Source: a virus. From it: a stretch of DNA of 64,000 nucleotides. The stretch's first letter is position 1; each line of letters opens with the position of its first letter. Of the stretch, positions 24,610 through 64,000 are shown piece after piece. The DNA lies in the IMG/VR virus record IMGVR_UViG_3300047548_001271, positions 93,443-157,442 of that record. One strand, given 5' to 3'. The notes under the pieces were generated by a model. That model made no database searches, was not told the DNA's origin, and saw only the letters and a list, made by a program, of their open reading frames with translations. A program made the translations under genes and the position numbers.

Positions 24610-24718
24610 TCCGGCAGCTAGGATTCGAACCTAGATCACGATCTTAGAAGTGATAATTTTAATGCTGTTAGAGATAAAATATCTCGTTTTACGTGTTTTA
24701 CCGTTAAACTACCGCCGA
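24610..24718 (-). ncRNA. tRNA-bodied RNA with ACAGCA module in the anticodon arm (copy 1)
   Basis: Acceptor TCGGCGG/CTGCCGG, D arm GTTT-AACGGTA-AAAC, T arm CTAGG-TTCGAAT-CCTAG; arm insert TAAAAC-GAGAT(ATTTT)ATCTC-TAACAGCA. Confidence 0.8.
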
Positions 24719-24828: not shown

Positions 24829-26205
24829 TTAAACAATATATCGATCTTTCATGATCGTCTCTAACATTACTCCTTCTGGTGACAGATCACCAAAAAGTGA
24901 AGGAATAATACTTGGAGAATAACCACTAACCAAAGCAACTCCTTTATCAGAAATTTTAGCTTGGAAGTTTTTATCTCTGCCGTTAACATTCCAGAAAACA
25001 ACTTGAGGAAGTTTATATCCATGAGACTCGAATTGAGATGTCATAGTTTGATAATTTGTCCCACGACAAGCAGAATTAAATTCCATGTCAGAGATGATTA
25101 GAATTTTACTTGGCATGTCATGGTTTGTCAAGTTGTTTTGTACGGCTTTGTTGAGAATCAACTCAAATACTTTTTGTAAGTCAGTGCTCATTCCCCATTC
25201 AGCTTGAGAAAGCTGTCTAAGTCGTTGACCAAAGTCACCAGAAAGCTGTTGAAGTTTTGGATTACTAGAGAAGGTAATAAAACAATCCTTAAAGATTCCA
25301 GTATTACGCTGCGAACAGTACATTGCTAATGAAATTGATGCATGAATTGGTCTAAATTGAGGATCTGAATAACAACCCATGCTACCACTAACATCAGAAA
25401 CAACCAATACATTTTCATCTGTATAATAATTCGGTAGTGCGTTCCACTGAGCAACAGCAACTACTGGATTTTTATTATACGATAGCAAAACATCATGAGG
25501 GAACAAAACACTAGCATTTATTTTTGCTTCACCAGAAGCTACTTTCGTCATGTATTGACCAAATCTTTTTGGATCTCGCTTATTAAAAGACCGAGAATAA
25601 ATAGACATAGCTTTTGATGGAACAGCAGAATATTTAATTTCTGACCATTGACGAGCACTCATCTGTTGTTCAACGACTTTAGTATTTTTTACAATTCTTT
25701 GCTTGAGACTAATAATCGAAACATCTAGTTTGGCAGCGACAAGGCCAAGCAAATTTCCTTCATTGTGTCTTGGTAGCCACTTACAAAGAAGATTATTGTC
25801 AATGTTGTCTGCGATAAACTGTGCTGTGTCATCGCATACTGGCATTACCATCCTTTTAGTAGTTGAGGTGCCCCATAGATCGTCCCATCGACCAATATCT
25901 GGAACCCTCTTCATAACTCTGATCTTATCTGCTTTAGGAAGAGATCTGTAAATCAACCGGAAAAGTCTTCGTTCTCCAGCTCCTCCACGAGGATCTCTCA
26001 ACCACAGCAAAATTCTGAGTGCGAGATCTGGATTACTGATGTAGGCTTTTTCCCACAAAAGCAAAACTTCCTTGTCTGGACGGCTTCTCATAGAAGCAAT
26101 AGTAGAAAACAAATCAACTAAAGGAGAACCAGTAGTTGAATGGGATTCTGCCCCATTAGCAGTCAGAGAATCATTCGTTTGAAGAGCATTAATCAATTTA
26201 GACAT
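24829..26205 (-). CDS. DUF2828-family protein (TROVE/Ro60-like helical domain + vWA)
   Basis: TANGA..STT, RDPRGGAGERRLFR, GRWDDL, KWLPR, MIDAS DVSGSM, WGMSTDL, ISDMEFN, VFWNV, VSGYS. Confidence 0.85.
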   Translation of the reverse strand: MSKLINALQTNDSLTANGAESHSTTGSPLVDLFSTIASMRSRPDKEVLLLWEKAYISNPDLALRILLWLRDPRGGAGERRLFRLIYRSLPKADKIRVMKRVPDIGRWDDLWGTSTTKRMVMPVCDDTAQFIADNIDNNLLCKWLPRHNEGNLLGLVAAKLDVSIISLKQRIVKNTKVVEQQMSARQWSEIKYSAVPSKAMSIYSRSFNKRDPKRFGQYMTKVASGEAKINASVLFPHDVLLSYNKNPVVAVAQWNALPNYYTDENVLVVSDVSGSMGCYSDPQFRPIHASISLAMYCSQRNTGIFKDCFITFSSNPKLQQLSGDFGQRLRQLSQAEWGMSTDLQKVFELILNKAVQNNLTNHDMPSKILIISDMEFNSACRGTNYQTMTSQFESHGYKLPQVVFWNVNGRDKNFQAKISDKGVALVSGYSPSIIPSLFGDLSPEGVMLETIMKDRYIV

Positions 26206-28429: not shown

Positions 28430-28503
28430 TGGCTCCACTCGGAGTCGAACCGAGAACATCATGTTCCTAAGACATGCGCCTCTGCCAATTGGGCTATGGA
28501 GCC
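28430..28503 (-). tRNA. tRNA-Leu(UAG) with short variable loop
   Basis: CATGT-CTTAGGA-ACATG anticodon arm; GGCTCCA/TGGAGCC acceptor. Confidence 0.85.
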
Positions 28504-36921: not shown

Positions 36922-36994
36922 AGCCACCAGCAGGACTCGAACCTGCAACCCCCTGTTTACAAGACAGGTTCTCTACCAATTGAGATATGGTGGC
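36922..36994 (-). tRNA. tRNA-Thr(UGU)
   Basis: CCTGT-CTTGTAA-ACAGG anticodon arm; canonical cloverleaf. Confidence 0.92.
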
Positions 36995-59129: not shown

Positions 59130-60020
59130 TCAGACAGAAAGACCAAGTGCAAGACGCTCTGCAGTATTTACTTCGGCGACACTGAAAGCTCTCACAGCCT
59201 TTCCAAACAGATCTTGAACTCGACCAGAAGCTTCGTGCTGGTGATAACCTTGCACGGCATTGTAAGCCTCCCATCCGCTCACAGGTGCGGCTGGATCAAC
59301 CCCAAGACGATTCCGCTCGTCAACCAGTCGTTGAGCAATTGCCTCTGCTCGCTTCTTATATACAGTAAGACCTCTCTTTTGTTCTTGTGATGGTACATCA
59401 CCATACACGCCACGGATGAAATCACCAAGTTTAACCTTCTGATTTCTCATCTGCTTAACAGTTGCATCAATTTGATCCCACTGACCAAGCAGTCCGCTGA
59501 ACTTCTCAATAAGCTTTTTGATATTGCCGTTGAACTTTCCGGCGGAGTGCCGAATTGCAAAACTGCATTCACCAACAGTCTTGAAAACGGCAATGTTCGA
59601 ACAAGCCACTCGATAAAATCCGAGAGTGGCGTGGAATGCTCGACCATCGTAACCGGCACGGACAATCACTCGCGGGAAAATCGCGTCGTTCTCATAAGAG
59701 ATCTTGAGCTGGTCTCGACTCGGAGAAACTGAGACATAATGCCCGTCGTTAAAATAACACTGAGTATTGTCCAGTCCTTGATATGCGTCGGATGCAGCAC
59801 TAAGAACCTCAAGCACGTCACTAACAACGTGTGGGTGGTAATTTTTCTTTACGGCACGACCAACACACTCTCCACTGTCACTACGGAAAAGTCCGTAGTG
59901 TCCAGTTGGCTGGCCATTAGGCCCAAGCATTTCATGCTTTTCAACCTCGAACTGGAACTTTTCGCGAACGGAATCAACAAACGAAGGAGTCGCACTTGAA
60001 GCAAGAATCAAACTAGTCAT
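59130..60020 (-). CDS. DUF932-family protein
   Basis: GLFRSD....G..V...Y.P, YDG...., RVACSN, IRHS, SGWEAYNAV..Y.QH. Confidence 0.75.
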   Translation of the reverse strand: MTSLILASSATPSFVDSVREKFQFEVEKHEMLGPNGQPTGHYGLFRSDSGECVGRAVKKNYHPHVVSDVLEVLSAASDAYQGLDNTQCYFNDGHYVSVSPSRDQLKISYENDAIFPRVIVRAGYDGRAFHATLGFYRVACSNIAVFKTVGECSFAIRHSAGKFNGNIKKLIEKFSGLLGQWDQIDATVKQMRNQKVKLGDFIRGVYGDVPSQEQKRGLTVYKKRAEAIAQRLVDERNRLGVDPAAPVSGWEAYNAVQGYHQHEASGRVQDLFGKAVRAFSVAEVNTAERLALGLSV

Positions 60021-60256
60021 CTTAAACACTCCAAAAGGAAACAATGGAAACCACTAAGAACATTCTATCAGAAGAACAAACAAAGTCAAGTGATTTCTTT
60101 CGTGTTGGTCTTGTCTTCGTTTGTCTGATGGATGAATTATATATATCACGTGGTTATTGTCAAACACTTTTTGTCGTTTTTTTGATCTGCGTTGATTAGT
60201 CGGCGATGGATATAATTGAGCCGCCTATGGCGGCGGCTCTGCCGCACTTATTTAAG

Positions 60257-60328
60257 TGGCCGCTACGGGAATCGAACCCGTTTCTTTCGGCTTATGAGAC
60301 CGATAAGATACCTCACCTTCCAGCGGCG
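60257..60328 (-). tRNA. tRNA-Met(CAU), probably initiator-like
   Basis: TCGGT-CTCATAA-GCCGA anticodon arm; C1:C72 mismatch. Confidence 0.82.
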
Positions 60329-61380
60329 TCAGATTATAAAGTTTTCGCATAATCAAGAATGTCAGAATGAATTCTGTGCGGACCTAAAAATTCACCGTTA
60401 TTCCACCAAGTGGTCCACCATTCAGGGAACGGGTTTTGATTAAGGAGGTCAAAGTCATCTGCAATAAGACCAAATCCAATATCAAGAATGTAATCTTCTA
60501 CGAGTCTTTCTTTAATTATATCTCCATCCACCACTTTGTCAACTGAATTTGCCAAGATTTCTTTTAGGGCGGATTCATCAACTAAAGAAAGAATCTGGGC
60601 GGGGATCATTTTGATTCCTTTTTTACATAAACATCCACGTATTCACTGTAAGAGTATGTTCTTACTTCTTCAATTCTTGGGAGGAAATCGCTTAGCGATT
60701 CTTTTTTGTACGGCATTAAATTTCGATTTGAATCATGAACATCCCCATTTTTGCGAACAGATAAAATAATCTCTTTAGAATAAGCCTCCCACAAAGTAAA
60801 TGGGATGCCTTTTTCCAAAATATGTAAGTATAGTTGTTTCGCGAGTGACATGTTATTCCTCTTGAGTGCTTGAGATGTCATTTACGCATTATATGATGCG
60901 TTTTCGCTTTGTCAAGATCTTATTTCACCTCAGTAAGTTCGTACTCAGTCGCACTGTAATTTTGCATACTTGCATAACCATTATCAATTAAAGATTTTGC
61001 GGCTTCTTCGGATTCTTCATGAGAAAAATACTGAAAGAGAAAATCGTAAATCTCATCATACGACGGCTTTGATTCAAATTTCTCAAGAACTGGAATGTGG
61101 CCATCAACATTAGATCTACTAAGAATGAACATTGTTAGTCTTTCTCTAAACTTCTTCCATTTGTTTTTCAGTCAACCACAACCCGGTCATTCTATTTGGA
61201 ACCCAGAATTCCAAATAGTATTTTGTTGGCGAATCATTTTTTATTTTAGTAATTCTGCCGGTCTTACCCCACATACTTTTTGTGATGGTATTAAGCTTTC
61301 TGACTTTTCTTTTTGTTCCTAGTAATGTTTGCATTTTTTTATTCTAACATAGAGACAGACAATGTCAAGAGAAAATTGCG

Positions 61381-61509
61381 TTCAGCGTGTTCACAGTCTT
61401 TCGACCCGAGGATACTTTCTTTTGGTAAAGATCTTCTCGTGACACATTAAGGCTTCGCCACTGGCGGTTCTAACTTCCTGCTGTGGTTGGAGGACGCGAA
61501 CCTGCTGAA
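61381..61509 (-). ncRNA. candidate structured RNA
   Basis: Terminal stem TTCAGC-GTTCGC/GTGAAC-GCTGAA with internal GTC-GAAA-GAC and CGAG/CTCG hairpins. Confidence 0.45.
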
Positions 61510-61641
61510 TCAAACCATTCTACCGGACAAACTTTATTTTTTAACGTCTTTTAGTTTCCGACATAGGGACGGGACTTTCTGTTGTTGTTTAAGGTACAAC
61601 CTGACAGCTTCCGAAACAGCATCATAAACCTTCTTGCAAGA

Positions 61642-61713
61642 TGACCCATGAGGGATTCGAACCCTCGTCCTCGGATTGAAAATCCGAGTGTCCTTCCAGT
61701 AGACGAATGGGCC
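61642..61713 (-). tRNA. tRNA-Glu(UUC)
   Basis: TCGGA-TTTTCAA-TCCGA anticodon arm. Confidence 0.9.
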
Positions 61714-62270
61714 TTTACTCTTATCGAGTAAGTAGAATATTTCCAAGTTCCGGAGAACTTACAAGCGAGTGTTCAATTATTTCCCATTTGGAAATAATGT
61801 GATACGTAGGACTGACAATCTCTTTGATCGTAAAATCATCAATCCTTTCCAAGTCATCTTGTCCTTCGCATAGTGCGTCAACACTACGCTTGAGTAGTTC
61901 TTTTATTTCATCTTCAGGTTGAGAAAGCATTGTGTGAGTCAATTCAGAACCTTCTTCTTGAAGAACATCATTTTCGTATGCCTTTGCAGTTTGACGAATG
62001 CTAAACACGGACTTGATCATTTCCTTCTCCTTTTAGTAGATTATACAACCAAAAACACGTCTGTCAAGCTTTTTTTCTGTCAATCTGTTCAATGATTTTT
62101 AAGAGTGCAAATTTTATTCTTGCGGCCTCTCCGTTTTTCATCTCTAATTTCGATACAGAGGATATTCCATATTGACAAGCTCTTTTCAGAATGTCAAGAT
62201 CAGAATCACGTATTGAAATGCTGAACTTTCGCATTTTATCTCCAAAAACGGGTTTGTCAAGTAAAAAAGA

Positions 62271-62386
62271 AACAGTCCGACCATCCGTTTTGTCCGCCAC
62301 TTACTAGATGGCTTCGTACACAATTAACACACAGGTTTTCCAAGTTTTACCAGTGTGAATAATTACGGTTTTCGCCCCGGACTGTT
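62271..62386 (-). ncRNA. three-way-junction RNA, copy A
   Basis: AACAGTCCG/CGGACTGTT, AAAAC-stem-TACGAA-GCCATCT...GGATGGT. Confidence 0.7.
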
Positions 62387-62419
62387 ATTTAGACTTGTTT
62401 GAAAAAAAATAAAAAAAGA

Positions 62420-62523
62420 AACAGTCTGACCATCCGTTAGAGAGTTCTAAAGGTTCCCTATATCTACTAGATGGCTTCGTACATAACCTATGATTATGGT
62501 TATGGTTTTTTAACCAGACTGTT
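62420..62523 (-). ncRNA. three-way-junction RNA, copy B
   Basis: AACAGTCTG/CAGACTGTT (compensatory change relative to copy A), same junction sequences. Confidence 0.7.
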
Positions 62524-62529
62524 CTTTAG

Positions 62530-62634
62530 CACGCAGGAGTTAATTACGCTCCTTTTCGAAGGCCCACCCGGTTTAGTGCCGTTTTAACCGTTTATCGAAT
62601 TACGGTAGTGTTGCTGTTAGCTTGGCCTCGCGTG
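62530..62634 (-). ncRNA. structured RNA containing the TAACAGCA...TAAAAC module
   Basis: CACGC/GCGTG and AGGCC/GGCCT stems; TAACAGCA-ACCGT(AATTCGATAA)ACGGT-TAAAAC. Confidence 0.6.
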
Positions 62635-62642
62635 TTTTTCAT

Positions 62643-62671
62643 ATTGTATCAAGTGTTTTCGGTACTGTCAA
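62643..62671 (-). promoter_or_regulatory. promoter of the ncRNA cluster
   Basis: TTGACA-N17-TACAAT with extended TG. Confidence 0.75.
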
Positions 62672-63286
62672 GAAAATTCTGCATTTTTTCTCTTTGTTCG
62701 ACATCTTCAAAAGTTCCCGTTTTTATCAAATCAGCCAAGATGCCACGAATTTCTTTCAATACTTGAGAATTTACAGAGATTTTGACTTCTTTTCCTAGAG
62801 GGACGCGACGCCAGTCAACAGGTTTCCAGCAAATATTTCCATCACCATTAATATATGGTCGATCTTCTTCACTGTTGTTGTTTGATCGCGATGTAAATAA
62901 GTCAATATGAAATTCTTTTTGCCCTTTTGATCGTTTTTTCTTCCAGTTCTTTTTTGCTTCTTCAAGAGTGGTTCCACCACCCCAAGCAAATCCACCAGAA
63001 ACGATATACCACTTAAACATTGTCATCTCCAGTAAGTAGCACAGTTGCTAGAGCGATCAAAATTGATGAGACAAACGCGAAGATCATTATAGCATTTGCT
63101 TCTGCCATGTCAAGACCTCGAAAAAAGGCCAATCAGAAAACCAACGCAAATCACAAAGATGAAAAATATCATATCGCCACCTTGTTCTTACTTCACAAAC
63201 CCCAGGGTGGACTACTCTACCCCCAGGAATACGTCATGCTCGTATCATTCAGCAGCGTTCTAAGGAGTCCACCCTTAGAATAACAG

Positions 63287-63359
63287 TGCATCCGCTGGGG
63301 CTCGAACCCAGGACCTATCGGTTAAAAGCCGATTGCTCTACCAACTGAGCTACGAATGC
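63287..63359 (-). tRNA. tRNA-Lys(UUU)
   Basis: ATCGG-CTTTTAA-CCGAT anticodon arm; canonical. Confidence 0.93.
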
Positions 63360-63362
63360 ATA

Positions 63363-63435
63363 TGCGGGAGGGCGGATTCGAACCGCCGACCACCGCTTTA
63401 TAAGAACGACGCTCTAACCTCTGAGCTACTCCCGC
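63363..63435 (-). tRNA. tRNA-Ile(UAU)
   Basis: TCGTT-CTTATAA-AGCGG anticodon arm; canonical D and T arms. Confidence 0.88.
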
Positions 63436-63518
63436 TTGTGGGATCGTCCTAAAATTCCAGCCTCTACGCCTAACGTAGCGAACTCTTAGTGGAACAGCAG
63501 TGATTCTACCATAGAAAT

Positions 63519-63812
63519 CTACTTTGTCAAGTAGATTGTTCCGTCAATTCGAGCAGAAACCAGTCCTTCAGTTGCAATCGAGCGATAGCCTTTATCGCTG
63601 ATAGAGTAGACGTTTGTCAGTGTTGGATCAGAGTTTGGTCTTGGATTCTCAGTTTTGAGATCCTTGCGAACACCAGTCCGACAAACCAGTGTTCGATACC
63701 GATAGTCGGAACGAGCACGAACAAACTGGACGGACATAAACTTTCCGCCTTGATTTCGAATCATCTGTGCGAGCTGCTCTTTTGAAACCTTAACAGCGTT
63801 TAACGTCTTCAT
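63519..63812 (-). CDS. conserved small phage protein (possible SH3-like fold)
   Basis: AGGAG RBS; F.SV.F.......R...CR.GV.K...V......GYRSI. Confidence 0.65.
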   Translation of the reverse strand: MKTLNAVKVSKEQLAQMIRNQGGKFMSVQFVRARSDYRYRTLVCRTGVRKDLKTENPRPNSDPTLTNVYSISDKGYRSIATEGLVSARIDGTIYLTK

Positions 63813-63845
63813 CAAACTCTCCTAAAAGGTGAAATCGACTTCCAT

Positions 63846-63950
63846 ATTATACAGAAGTCAGTTGGATTGTCAAGTGTTTTCTTTTCTCTTTTCTCTTTTG
63901 TTCTCGCGTGTCTGATGAGTGAATTATATATATGGCGTGGCTATTGTCAA
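63846..63950 (-). promoter_or_regulatory. tandem strong promoters
   Basis: Two TTGACA-N16-TATAAT sites (63846-63873, 63923-63950). Confidence 0.75.
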
Positions 63951-63961
63951 ATGATTTTGTT

Positions 63962-63998
<37 letters not shown>

Positions 63999-64000
63999 TT

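What the first reader, a model, noticed from the sequence alone, without database searches (positions are those of the whole stretch)
62271..62671. Dedicated non-coding transcription unit: one ACAGCA-module RNA plus two covarying three-way-junction RNAs
Seen: a promoter (62643-62671) reads into about 365 nt with no credible ORF. First is an RNA with TAACAGCA-hairpin(TTCGAT)-TAAAAC. Two elements follow that share P1 (with a C-G to T-A compensatory change), AAAAC, a P2 of different sequence and length, TACGAA, and P3 GCCATCT-AGTA...AAC-GGATGGT; each ends in a T run. The AAAAC-stem-TACGAAGC junction echoes AAAAC-stem-TAACAGCA. Inference: a new ncRNA family, perhaps additional ligands or decoys for DUF2828-type or host RNA-binding defence proteins.
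Basis: partly seen in the sequence, partly recalled or inferred. Interest (0 to 1): 0.75.

Follow-up and report, generated by a model that had tools for sequence, protein, structure and literature searches.

The report
Paired three-way-junction RNAs in a phage
An uncultivated phage makes, from one strong promoter, two sister small RNAs folded as three-armed junctions; a near-identical phage keeps the fold through compensating mutations, so they are real and match no known RNA family, but their job is unknown and nothing links them to the phage's Ro60-like protein.

Summary
On the minus strand a near-consensus promoter (62671-62643) leads into about 375 nt with no conserved ORF. It holds a multi-branch RNA (62634-62530) and two paralogous three-way-junction (3WJ) RNAs: A at 62523-62420 and B at 62386-62271. 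In each, the closing helix P1 runs straight into a U tract.

A sibling phage found through the flanking gene (L139/L140, RNA region 96% identical) carries both copies. All 7 substitutions at paired positions keep pairing, including one C-G to U-A swap (simulation P about 0.01). Across the four copies 92 of 92 pair cells are standard pairs. G-U pairs show the unit acts as minus-strand RNA.

There is no Rfam match, no tRNA call and no homolog in any collection I could search. That includes 34 phage records that carry DUF2828.

The first RNA's UAACAGCA box lacks the flanking helix of the DUF2828 "handle" and is gone in the sibling phage. The DUF2828 link is therefore unsupported.

Best reading (about 0.45): stand-alone structured RNAs whose invariant P1-P3 core binds an unknown partner. 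Main rival (about 0.3): a cis-acting leader that gates read-through into the next gene.

This is a real, lineage-restricted orphan RNA family of moderate interest.

The parts
62643..62671 (-). Sigma-70-type promoter: TTGACA, 17-nt spacer, TG-extended TACAAT. The inferred start is near 62636.
   Evidence: 11 of 12 matches. Identical in L139/L140.
62530..62634 (-). RNA1, a multi-branch domain closed by CACGCGAGGCC/GGCCUUC...GCGUG. It has a CCGU/ACGG hairpin and a GGAG/CUCC hairpin. The UAACAGCA box (62619-62612) sits in an unpaired linker.
   Evidence: The same architecture folds in the window and in L139 (z -1.4 and -1.8). Stem differences are pair-compatible, but the UAACAGCA box is not conserved.
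62420..62523 (-). 3WJ RNA copy A. P1 is 62523-62515 with 62428-62420. J1/2 ends in AAAAC. P2 is 62504-62498 with 62488-62482. J2/3 UACGAA is 62481-62476. P3 is 62475-62469 with 62435-62429.
   Evidence: In L139, P2 pair C-G becomes U-A, P1 takes two wobble changes, and the P3 closing pair G-U becomes G-C.
62402..62419 (-). U tract directly after P1 of copy A (UUCUUUUUUUAUUUUUUUU). P1 plus this tract has the form of an intrinsic terminator.
   Evidence: Read from the sequence. The simple terminator scan misses it because its loop limit is 8 nt.
62271..62386 (-). 3WJ RNA copy B. P1 is 62386-62378 with 62279-62271. P2 (long and bulged) has its base at 62367-62361 with 62325-62319. J2/3 is 62318-62313. 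P3 is 62312-62306 with 62286-62280.
   Evidence: In L139, P2 U-G becomes C-G and P3 G-U becomes G-C, and the loop changes are unconstrained.
62262..62270 (-). U tract directly after P1 of copy B (UCUUUUUUA).
   Evidence: Read from the sequence.
62233..62260 (-). Next promoter-like site, TTGACA-16-TAAAAT. Its -10 hexamer overlaps the ATG of the following 56-aa ORF.
   Evidence: (11 of 12 matches) and the sequence.
62064..62234 (-). A 56-aa ORF (P0003) with a GGAG Shine-Dalgarno box 5 nt upstream. It can be translated only from transcripts that start upstream, that is, from read-through of the RNA unit.
   Evidence: 98% identical in L139. The AlphaFold model is a two-helix hairpin, pLDDT 90. No Pfam, PHROG or PDB relative was found.

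Best explanation
The unit encodes a new, lineage-restricted family of small structured RNAs that act as RNA on the minus strand.

Shown:
- Two paralogous RNAs of about 105-117 nt each fold into a three-way junction.
- A 9-10-bp P1 is stacked end to end on a 7-bp P3, with no nucleotide between them.
- J1/2 ends in AAAAC, J2/3 is UACGAA, and the P3 loop is framed by AGUA...AAC.
- This core is almost identical in all four known copies.
- P2 and the distal part of P3 differ freely in sequence and length.
- The 3' arm of P1 runs directly into a U tract.

Inferred mechanism:
- P2 and P3 fold first during transcription.
- When the 3' arm of P1 emerges, it closes the junction. The closing helix with its U tract then works as an intrinsic terminator. 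The released RNA has both ends locked in a helix.
- The invariant P1-P3 stack and the junction serve as a docking platform for a protein partner, from the phage or the host, not yet identified.
- P2 and distal P3 are tolerated or displayed appendages.
- Partial read-through at copy A yields copy B.

Confidence:
- That this is a real structured RNA under selection: about 0.85.
- For the whole statement, including stand-alone RNA and protein docking: about 0.45.
For: - Repeat and fold.
- Four-copy alignment A5: 92 of 92 pair cells are standard pairs, 4 pairs change on both sides, and slid controls give 25-40% pairing.
- Window versus sibling phage: 7 substitutions fall at paired columns and none breaks a pair. 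Random placement of the same substitutions leaves all pairs intact in 1.3% of trials, and in 0.2% of trials that have at least 7 stem hits.
- Strand: several kept pairs are G-U, which would be C-A on the other strand. Selection therefore acts on minus-strand RNA.
- Non-coding: 4-nt and 5-nt indels between the two phages.
- Promoter: near-consensus, in a region with 11 promoters on that strand matching the consensus at 11 or 12 of 12 positions.
- Other RNA genes of this phage also end with a closing stem followed directly by a T run: tRNA-Leu at 28430, tRNA-Thr at 36922 and the tRNA-like RNA at 24610.
- The core sequence is held constant while P2 is not alignable between the paralogs. This fits recognition of the core by a partner.
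Against: - No expression data exist, and no partner has been identified.
- Only two phage lineages carry the RNA, so the covariation rests on few events.
- The two copies in the sibling phage show the same U-to-C change in P3. Gene conversion between copies could therefore inflate the apparent conservation of the core.
- Copy B lacks a promoter, so the U tract of copy A cannot be a full stop.
- The next ORF seems to need read-through, which fits a leader as well as it fits free-standing RNAs.
Confidence: 0.45

Rival explanations
1. Cis-acting leader. RNA1 and the two 3WJs form a long 5' leader in which two successive terminator-embedded sensor domains set how much transcription reaches the 56-aa gene and what lies beyond it. 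This would resemble tandem riboswitches or protein-dependent attenuators. A ligand or protein that pre-organises the junction would speed P1 closure and so termination.
For: - The ORF has a good GGAG Shine-Dalgarno box, but its ATG lies inside the -10 hexamer of the only nearby promoter. A translatable mRNA must therefore start upstream and pass both U tracts.
- Copy B has no promoter, so read-through at copy A must occur.
- The arrangement is identical in the sibling phage.
- Two complete units in tandem recall tandem riboswitch layouts (general knowledge).
Against: - P1 is long and stable (9-10 bp), so it should form without help.
- I saw no conserved alternative (antiterminator) pairing.
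- The downstream protein has no known function that would suggest a ligand.
- No riboswitch or leader family matches.
- Leaky terminators between densely packed promoters would give the same read-through with no regulation.
Confidence: 0.3
2. One reading: the RNAs are extra ligands or decoys for the phage's DUF2828 (Ro60-like) protein, related to the UAACAGCA/AAAAC handle RNAs beside that gene.
For: - The phage encodes a DUF2828/DUF7788 protein at 24829-26205.
- Genuine handle modules lie next to that gene.
- RNA1 carries UAACAGCA and UAAAAC, and the 3WJs carry AAAAC before P2.
Against: - RNA1 lacks the helix that brackets box and AAAAC in the genuine modules. Its box is destroyed in the sibling phage while the rest of RNA1 is kept.
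- The 3WJs have no ACAGCA.
- Model R2 finds nothing at E below 0.9 in 34 DUF2828-carrying phage records, six of them at least 90% complete.
- GTACGAAG is absent from all 34 DUF2828 loci.
- The unit lies 36 kb from the gene.
- AAAAC is a weak signal in a genome of about 33% G+C.
Confidence: 0.08
3. No function beyond ending transcription. On this view the elements are elaborate duplicated terminators or insulators between strong promoters, or neutral duplicated DNA.
For: - Each element ends in a stem plus U tract.
- The region is packed with strong promoters.
- The family is very narrow in distribution.
Against: - A terminator needs only a short hairpin.
- Here P2, P3 and the junction letters are also preserved. 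They are kept through compensatory change in P2 and identical junctions in four copies, although the paralogs are old enough for P2 to be unalignable.
Confidence: 0.1
4. DNA-level element: the P1 arms are inverted-repeat operator sites for a DNA-binding protein.
For: Four similar 9-10-bp arms lie in inverted pairs just upstream of a promoter-like site.
Against: - In the sibling phage the two arms of copy A differ at two positions that still pair as G-U in RNA, so they are no longer a DNA palindrome.
- P2 and P3 also covary.
- The adjacent small protein models as a plain helical hairpin with no match to DNA-binding folds.
Confidence: 0.03

Closest known systems
Phage T4 rnaC and rnaD (species 1 and 2 RNAs)
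   Same: Both are two tandem small RNA genes of about 120-140 nt of unknown function, lying in the tRNA-rich part of a large phage genome (annotation of NC_000866).
   Different: There is no sequence or structure homology. Model R2 finds nothing in the T4 region. T4 rnaC carries a tRNA-type T arm (GGUUCGAAUCC), which the 3WJs lack. The T4 RNAs follow a tRNA directly and are not each closed by a helix plus U tract.
Y RNAs with Ro60/Rsr (bacterial and phage YrlA/YrlB) and this phage's DUF2828 handle RNAs
   Same: These are small RNAs whose paired ends form a long stem with variable inner modules, and which act or are thought to act as protein-docking scaffolds. The phage itself encodes a Ro60-like DUF2828 protein.
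   Different: There is no Rfam Y-RNA hit. The 3WJs have no UAACAGCA box, are not adjacent to the DUF2828 gene and do not co-occur with it in 34 phage records.
Tandem transcriptional riboswitches (complete aptamer-plus-terminator units in series)
   Same: Two similar structured domains lie in series upstream of a gene, each ending in a terminator-like stem and U tract. The conserved junction letters are flanked by variable peripheral helices.
   Different: No match to any riboswitch family. P1 itself is the terminator stem and is long. No antiterminator or ligand clue was found. The unit has its own promoter and sits in an RNA-gene-rich region.
Hammerhead and other three-way-junction ribozymes
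   Same: Three helices meet at a junction, with a GAA just before the third helix.
   Different: The catalytic CUGAUGA strand is absent (J1/2 is GUUAAAAAAC or GGGCGAAAAC). No nucleotide lies between P3 and P1 where the cleavage site would be. There is no Rfam hit.

Membership tests
DUF2828-associated handle RNA (UAACAGCA / AAAAC internal-loop module; provisional family from this scan's earlier notes) | UAACAGCA(U) box | tested here: not met
   The 3WJs have UACGAAGC instead. RNA1 has UAACAGCAA in the window, but the sibling phage has CUAAACAA there.
DUF2828-associated handle RNA (UAACAGCA / AAAAC internal-loop module; provisional family from this scan's earlier notes) | A 5-6-bp helix directly bracketing the box and the AAAAC strand | tested here: not met
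   The genuine copies have GUCGC...GCGAC or GAGAU...AUCUC. RNA1 has CAAGC...GGCAC, which cannot pair.
DUF2828-associated handle RNA (UAACAGCA / AAAAC internal-loop module; provisional family from this scan's earlier notes) | Lies beside, and travels with, a DUF2828 gene | tested here: not met
   The unit is 36 kb from the gene. R2 finds no 3WJ in 34 DUF2828 phage records.
Y RNA / YrlA (Rfam) | Match to the Rfam covariance models | tested here: not met
   cmscan found no hit at gathering score over the whole window, and none at E up to 10 over 62150-62750.
tRNA or tRNA-like RNA | Cloverleaf with T arm and D arm | tested here: not met
   ARAGORN and Rfam tRNA other genes but nothing at 62263-62641. 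No GGUUCGAAUCC-type T arm is present.
Hammerhead ribozyme | CUGAUGA and GAAA core strands with a cleavage nucleotide between stems III and I | tested here: not met
   Read from the sequence. No Rfam hit.
Any Rfam 15 family (riboswitches, ribozymes, sRNAs) | Score at or above the gathering threshold | tested here: not met
   The best hit overlapping the RNAs reaches 18 bits against a gathering score of 59, at E 1.8.
T4 rnaC/rnaD | Sequence and structure similarity to the T4 RNAs | tested here: not met
   R2 with filters off on the T4 tRNA region: best E 0.55, and that hit is elsewhere in the region.
Intrinsic (Rho-independent) terminator | G+C-containing stem followed at once by a U tract | tested here: met
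   P1 (CAGUCYG/CRGACUG core) is followed by UUUCUUUUUU in both copies and both phages. It is atypical in enclosing a 90-110-nt junction. Actual termination is not testable here.

The most novel reading that the evidence does not exclude
The two 3WJs are a new class of sensor in which the aptamer's own closing helix is the terminator. A phage or host factor (a protein or a small molecule) that binds the invariant junction decides, twice in series, whether RNA polymerase stops and releases a stable RNA-factor particle, or reads on into the downstream early genes. One element would then serve both as a trans-acting RNP and as a cis-acting switch.
Probability: 0.12. Interest if true: 0.7.

Novelty: new member of a known kind. 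Interest (0 to 1): 0.4.

Why it matters
Large tRNA-rich phages carry small stable RNAs whose roles are still unknown; T4 rnaC and rnaD are annotated only as small stable RNAs. This unit adds a cleanly defined case. It has a fold supported by compensatory change, an invariant core that suggests a specific partner, and a built-in terminator. If a partner were found, it could reveal a new RNA-based step in the control of phage early genes or in countering host defences.

The result also narrows the DUF2828/handle story in this genome. These RNAs should not be counted as further handle copies. As it stands the family is known from two closely related uncultivated phages only, and nothing is known of its function.

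Tried and rejected
**Searches for homologs**
- Exact 17-mer of J2/3 plus P3 in IMG/VR: 3 hits, all inside coding sequence and unrelated.
- Degenerate pattern AAAAC...TACGAAGC.....AGTA in IMG/VR: at least 119 hits. None scored with model R1, and none had the P1/P3 architecture.
- Two-part P3 pattern in metagenome contigs and in genome contigs: 0 hits in each. Even the window's own JGI contig was not found, so those collections do not hold these samples.
- Flanking proteins P0001, P0002 and P0003 against 5.8 billion proteins: only the sibling phage, plus one truncated contig that lacks the RNA region. P0001 has no relative in IMG/VR.
- Sixteen loci around DUF932 homologs (35-46% identity) and five of their whole contigs: no match to R1 or R2. 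These phages also lack DUF2828, so they say nothing about co-occurrence.
- A sequence-light descriptor (CGAA, a 7-bp P3 abutting a 9-bp P1) over 1.4 Mb of fetched loci found only the known copies and two chance hits without U tracts.
- The rest of the window's own 157-kb genome could not be searched; the record is not held.

**Other checks**
- No 12-mer or longer complementarity points to a target within the window.
- I first read the 56-aa ORF as a ribbon-helix-helix protein from its sequence pattern. The AlphaFold model is a two-helix hairpin, and Foldseek against PDB gave no match at E of 0.001 or better, so I dropped that reading.
- Literature: 'DUF2828' returns only incidental mentions, and a search for T4 species 1 RNA returned nothing in the held library.

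Full report
**What is there.**
All features lie on the minus strand. A near-consensus promoter (TTGACA, 17 nt, TG-TACAAT; 62671-62643) sits at the stop codon of a 125-aa gene. About 375 nt follow before the next start codon at 62234. No ORF of 30 aa or more lies wholly inside this stretch on the transcribed strand. The short ATG-initiated frames are broken by a 4-nt and a 5-nt indel in a 96%-identical relative. The stretch is therefore non-coding.

It has three parts.
- RNA1 (62634-62530) is a multi-branch domain closed by an 11-bp composite stem.
- Copy A is at 62523-62420.
- Copy B is at 62386-62271.

Each of the two copies consists of, in order:
- a 9-10-bp P1;
- a purine-rich J1/2 ending in AAAAC;
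- a hairpin P2;
- J2/3 UACGAA;
- a 7-bp P3 (GCCAUCU/GGAUGGU) whose loop opens with AGUA and closes with AAC;
- the 3' arm of P1 with no intervening nucleotide, followed by a U tract.

**Is it more than chance, and is it RNA?**
The shared 17-mer occurs twice, against 0.06 expected. A covariance model finds only these two copies in the 64-kb window: 154 and 162 bits, with the next hit at 18 bits. Each copy folds into the junction without guidance.

The key evidence is a sibling phage. I found it because the upstream 125-aa protein has exactly one relative among 5.8 billion proteins. That relative lies on a JGI contig and on a Logan contig (L139 and L140). The loci are syntenic and the RNA region is 96% identical.

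Between the two phages, seven substitutions fall on paired positions of the two junctions, and none breaks a pair:
- A-U to G-U and U-A to U-G in P1 of copy A;
- C-G to U-A (both sides changed) in P2 of copy A;
- U-G to C-G in P2 of copy B;
- G-U to G-C in the closing pair of P3, in both copies.

Placing the same substitutions at random leaves all pairs intact in 1.3% of trials. Among trials with at least seven stem hits the figure is 0.2%. Over the four copies, 92 of 92 pair cells are standard pairs and four pairs change on both sides. Sliding the partners by 1-3 columns gives 25-40% pairing.

The remaining differences lie in loops, including a 5-nt loop deletion. Several retained pairs are G-U, which would be C-A mismatches on the other strand or in a DNA palindrome. 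The selected object is therefore minus-strand RNA.

The paralogs are old. P2 is a 7-bp hairpin in A and a 49-nt bulged hairpin in B, and both forms are present in both phages. Even so, P1, P3 and the junction letters are nearly identical in all four copies.

**RNA1 and the ACAGCA module.**
The genuine modules near the DUF2828 gene are at 24670, 24766, 26269 and 27352. In each, a 5-6-bp helix directly brackets UAACAGCA on one strand and AAAAC or GAAAU on the other, in two permuted topologies.

In RNA1 the letters beside the two motifs (CAAGC and GGCAC) cannot pair. In the predicted fold the box lies in an unpaired linker. In the sibling phage the box reads CUAAACAA after a 4-nt deletion, while the rest of RNA1 keeps its stems through pair-compatible changes. 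About 2.4 chance copies of the 8-mer are expected in the window. I conclude that RNA1 is not a handle.

The 'echo' between AAAAC-P2-UACGAAGC and AAAAC-stem-UAACAGCA rests on AAAAC and a few scattered letters, in a genome of about 33% G+C.

**Link to DUF2828.**
The phage does encode a DUF2828/DUF7788 protein at 24829-26205. It is followed by two tRNA-shaped RNAs that carry the module. Earlier notes of this scan treat those RNAs.

I fetched 34 phage records that carry a homolog of this protein. I searched each whole record with the four-copy model R2. The only hit had E 0.95. The string GTACGAAG is absent from all 34 loci, whereas ACAGCA[AU] is 2.3-fold enriched on the gene strand there. The 3WJ therefore does not travel with DUF2828.

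**Known families.**
- Rfam 15 gives nothing at gathering score in the window apart from tRNAs and a tmRNA. The region itself gives nothing better than E 0.13, and that hit lies in the upstream coding sequence.
- ARAGORN calls no tRNA here.
- The hammerhead core is absent.
- T4 rnaC and rnaD are the closest analog by context: tandem RNA genes of 119 and 139 nt of unknown function in a phage tRNA cluster. They are not homologous.

**Distribution.**
Pattern scans of IMG/VR, of JGI metagenome contigs and of 185,579 species genomes found no homolog. Neither did model searches of related phages or a structure descriptor. The flanking genes are also confined to this lineage. For now the family is known from two closely related uncultivated phages.

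**How it probably works.**
Shown:
- the fold;
- the invariant core;
- the U tract abutting P1;
- the promoter;
- the absence of a promoter for copy B and of a terminator for RNA1.

Inferred: P1 plus the U tract acts as an intrinsic terminator that releases an RNA with its ends locked in a helix. The same design ends other RNA genes of this phage, where a closing stem is followed directly by a T run. Examples are tRNA-Leu at 28430, tRNA-Thr at 36922 and the tRNA-like RNA at 24610.

A sequence-invariant P1-P3 stack and junction, beside freely varying arms, is what a protein-docking scaffold would look like. I therefore favour stand-alone RNP-forming RNAs (about 0.45).

The main rival is a cis-acting leader (about 0.3). 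The next ORF (56 aa, good GGAG box, 98% conserved) has its ATG inside the -10 hexamer of the only nearby promoter. It can therefore be translated only from transcripts that read through both U tracts. The two readings are not exclusive.

The remaining rivals are less likely:
- plain terminators, about 0.1;
- DUF2828 ligands, about 0.08;
- DNA operators, about 0.03.

**Verdict.**
It is a solid but narrow orphan RNA family.

Noticed in passing
window 63185-63285 (-): Directly after tRNA-Lys lies an element of about 85 nt closed by a 9-10-bp helix (GGGUGGACU / AGUCCACCC), with inner hairpins. Its 3' half is identical in the sibling phage L139. It could be another small structured RNA or a processing signal.
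   Followed up: partly
window 60000-64000 (-): Promoter density is very high. There are seven perfect TTGACA-16-TATAAT sites and four that match 11 of 12 positions on the minus strand, roughly one per small gene or RNA cluster. In all, 20 sites were found against 8 expected.
   Followed up: no
window 62233-62260 and 62064-62234 (-): The -10 hexamer (TAAAAT) of a promoter-like site overlaps the ATG of a conserved 56-aa ORF that has its own GGAG box. The ORF models confidently (pLDDT 90) as a two-helix hairpin with no known relatives.
   Followed up: partly
window 28430, 36922 and 24610 (-): Several RNA genes end with their closing (acceptor) stem followed at once by a T run and no separate terminator hairpin. 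After tRNA-Thr the run is 17 T. This suggests that closing stems serve as terminators for RNA genes in this phage.
   Followed up: no
A5 column 128 (window 62429 and 62280; L139 copies A and B): The closing pair of P3 is G-U in both copies of the window phage and G-C in both copies of the sibling phage. This parallel change points to gene conversion between the paralogs or to co-selection.
   Followed up: no
window 62391-62401 (-), spacer between copies A and B: The spacer CAAACAAGUCU can pair with the 3' arm of copy A's P1 (AGACUGUUU) across the U tract. This gives an alternative hairpin after read-through, and it is conserved in L139. Its significance is unknown.
   Followed up: no
L144-L177 (DUF2828 loci from IMG/VR): ACAGCA[AU] is 2.3-fold enriched on the gene strand around DUF2828 homologs (32 of 34 loci), whereas the exact 8-mer UAACAGCA is not. 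The handle consensus in other phages therefore differs at its first letters.
   Followed up: partly
window 63963-64000 (-): A run of about 35 A (T on the plus strand), interrupted by one T, lies at the edge of the window just upstream of two tandem consensus promoters.
   Followed up: no
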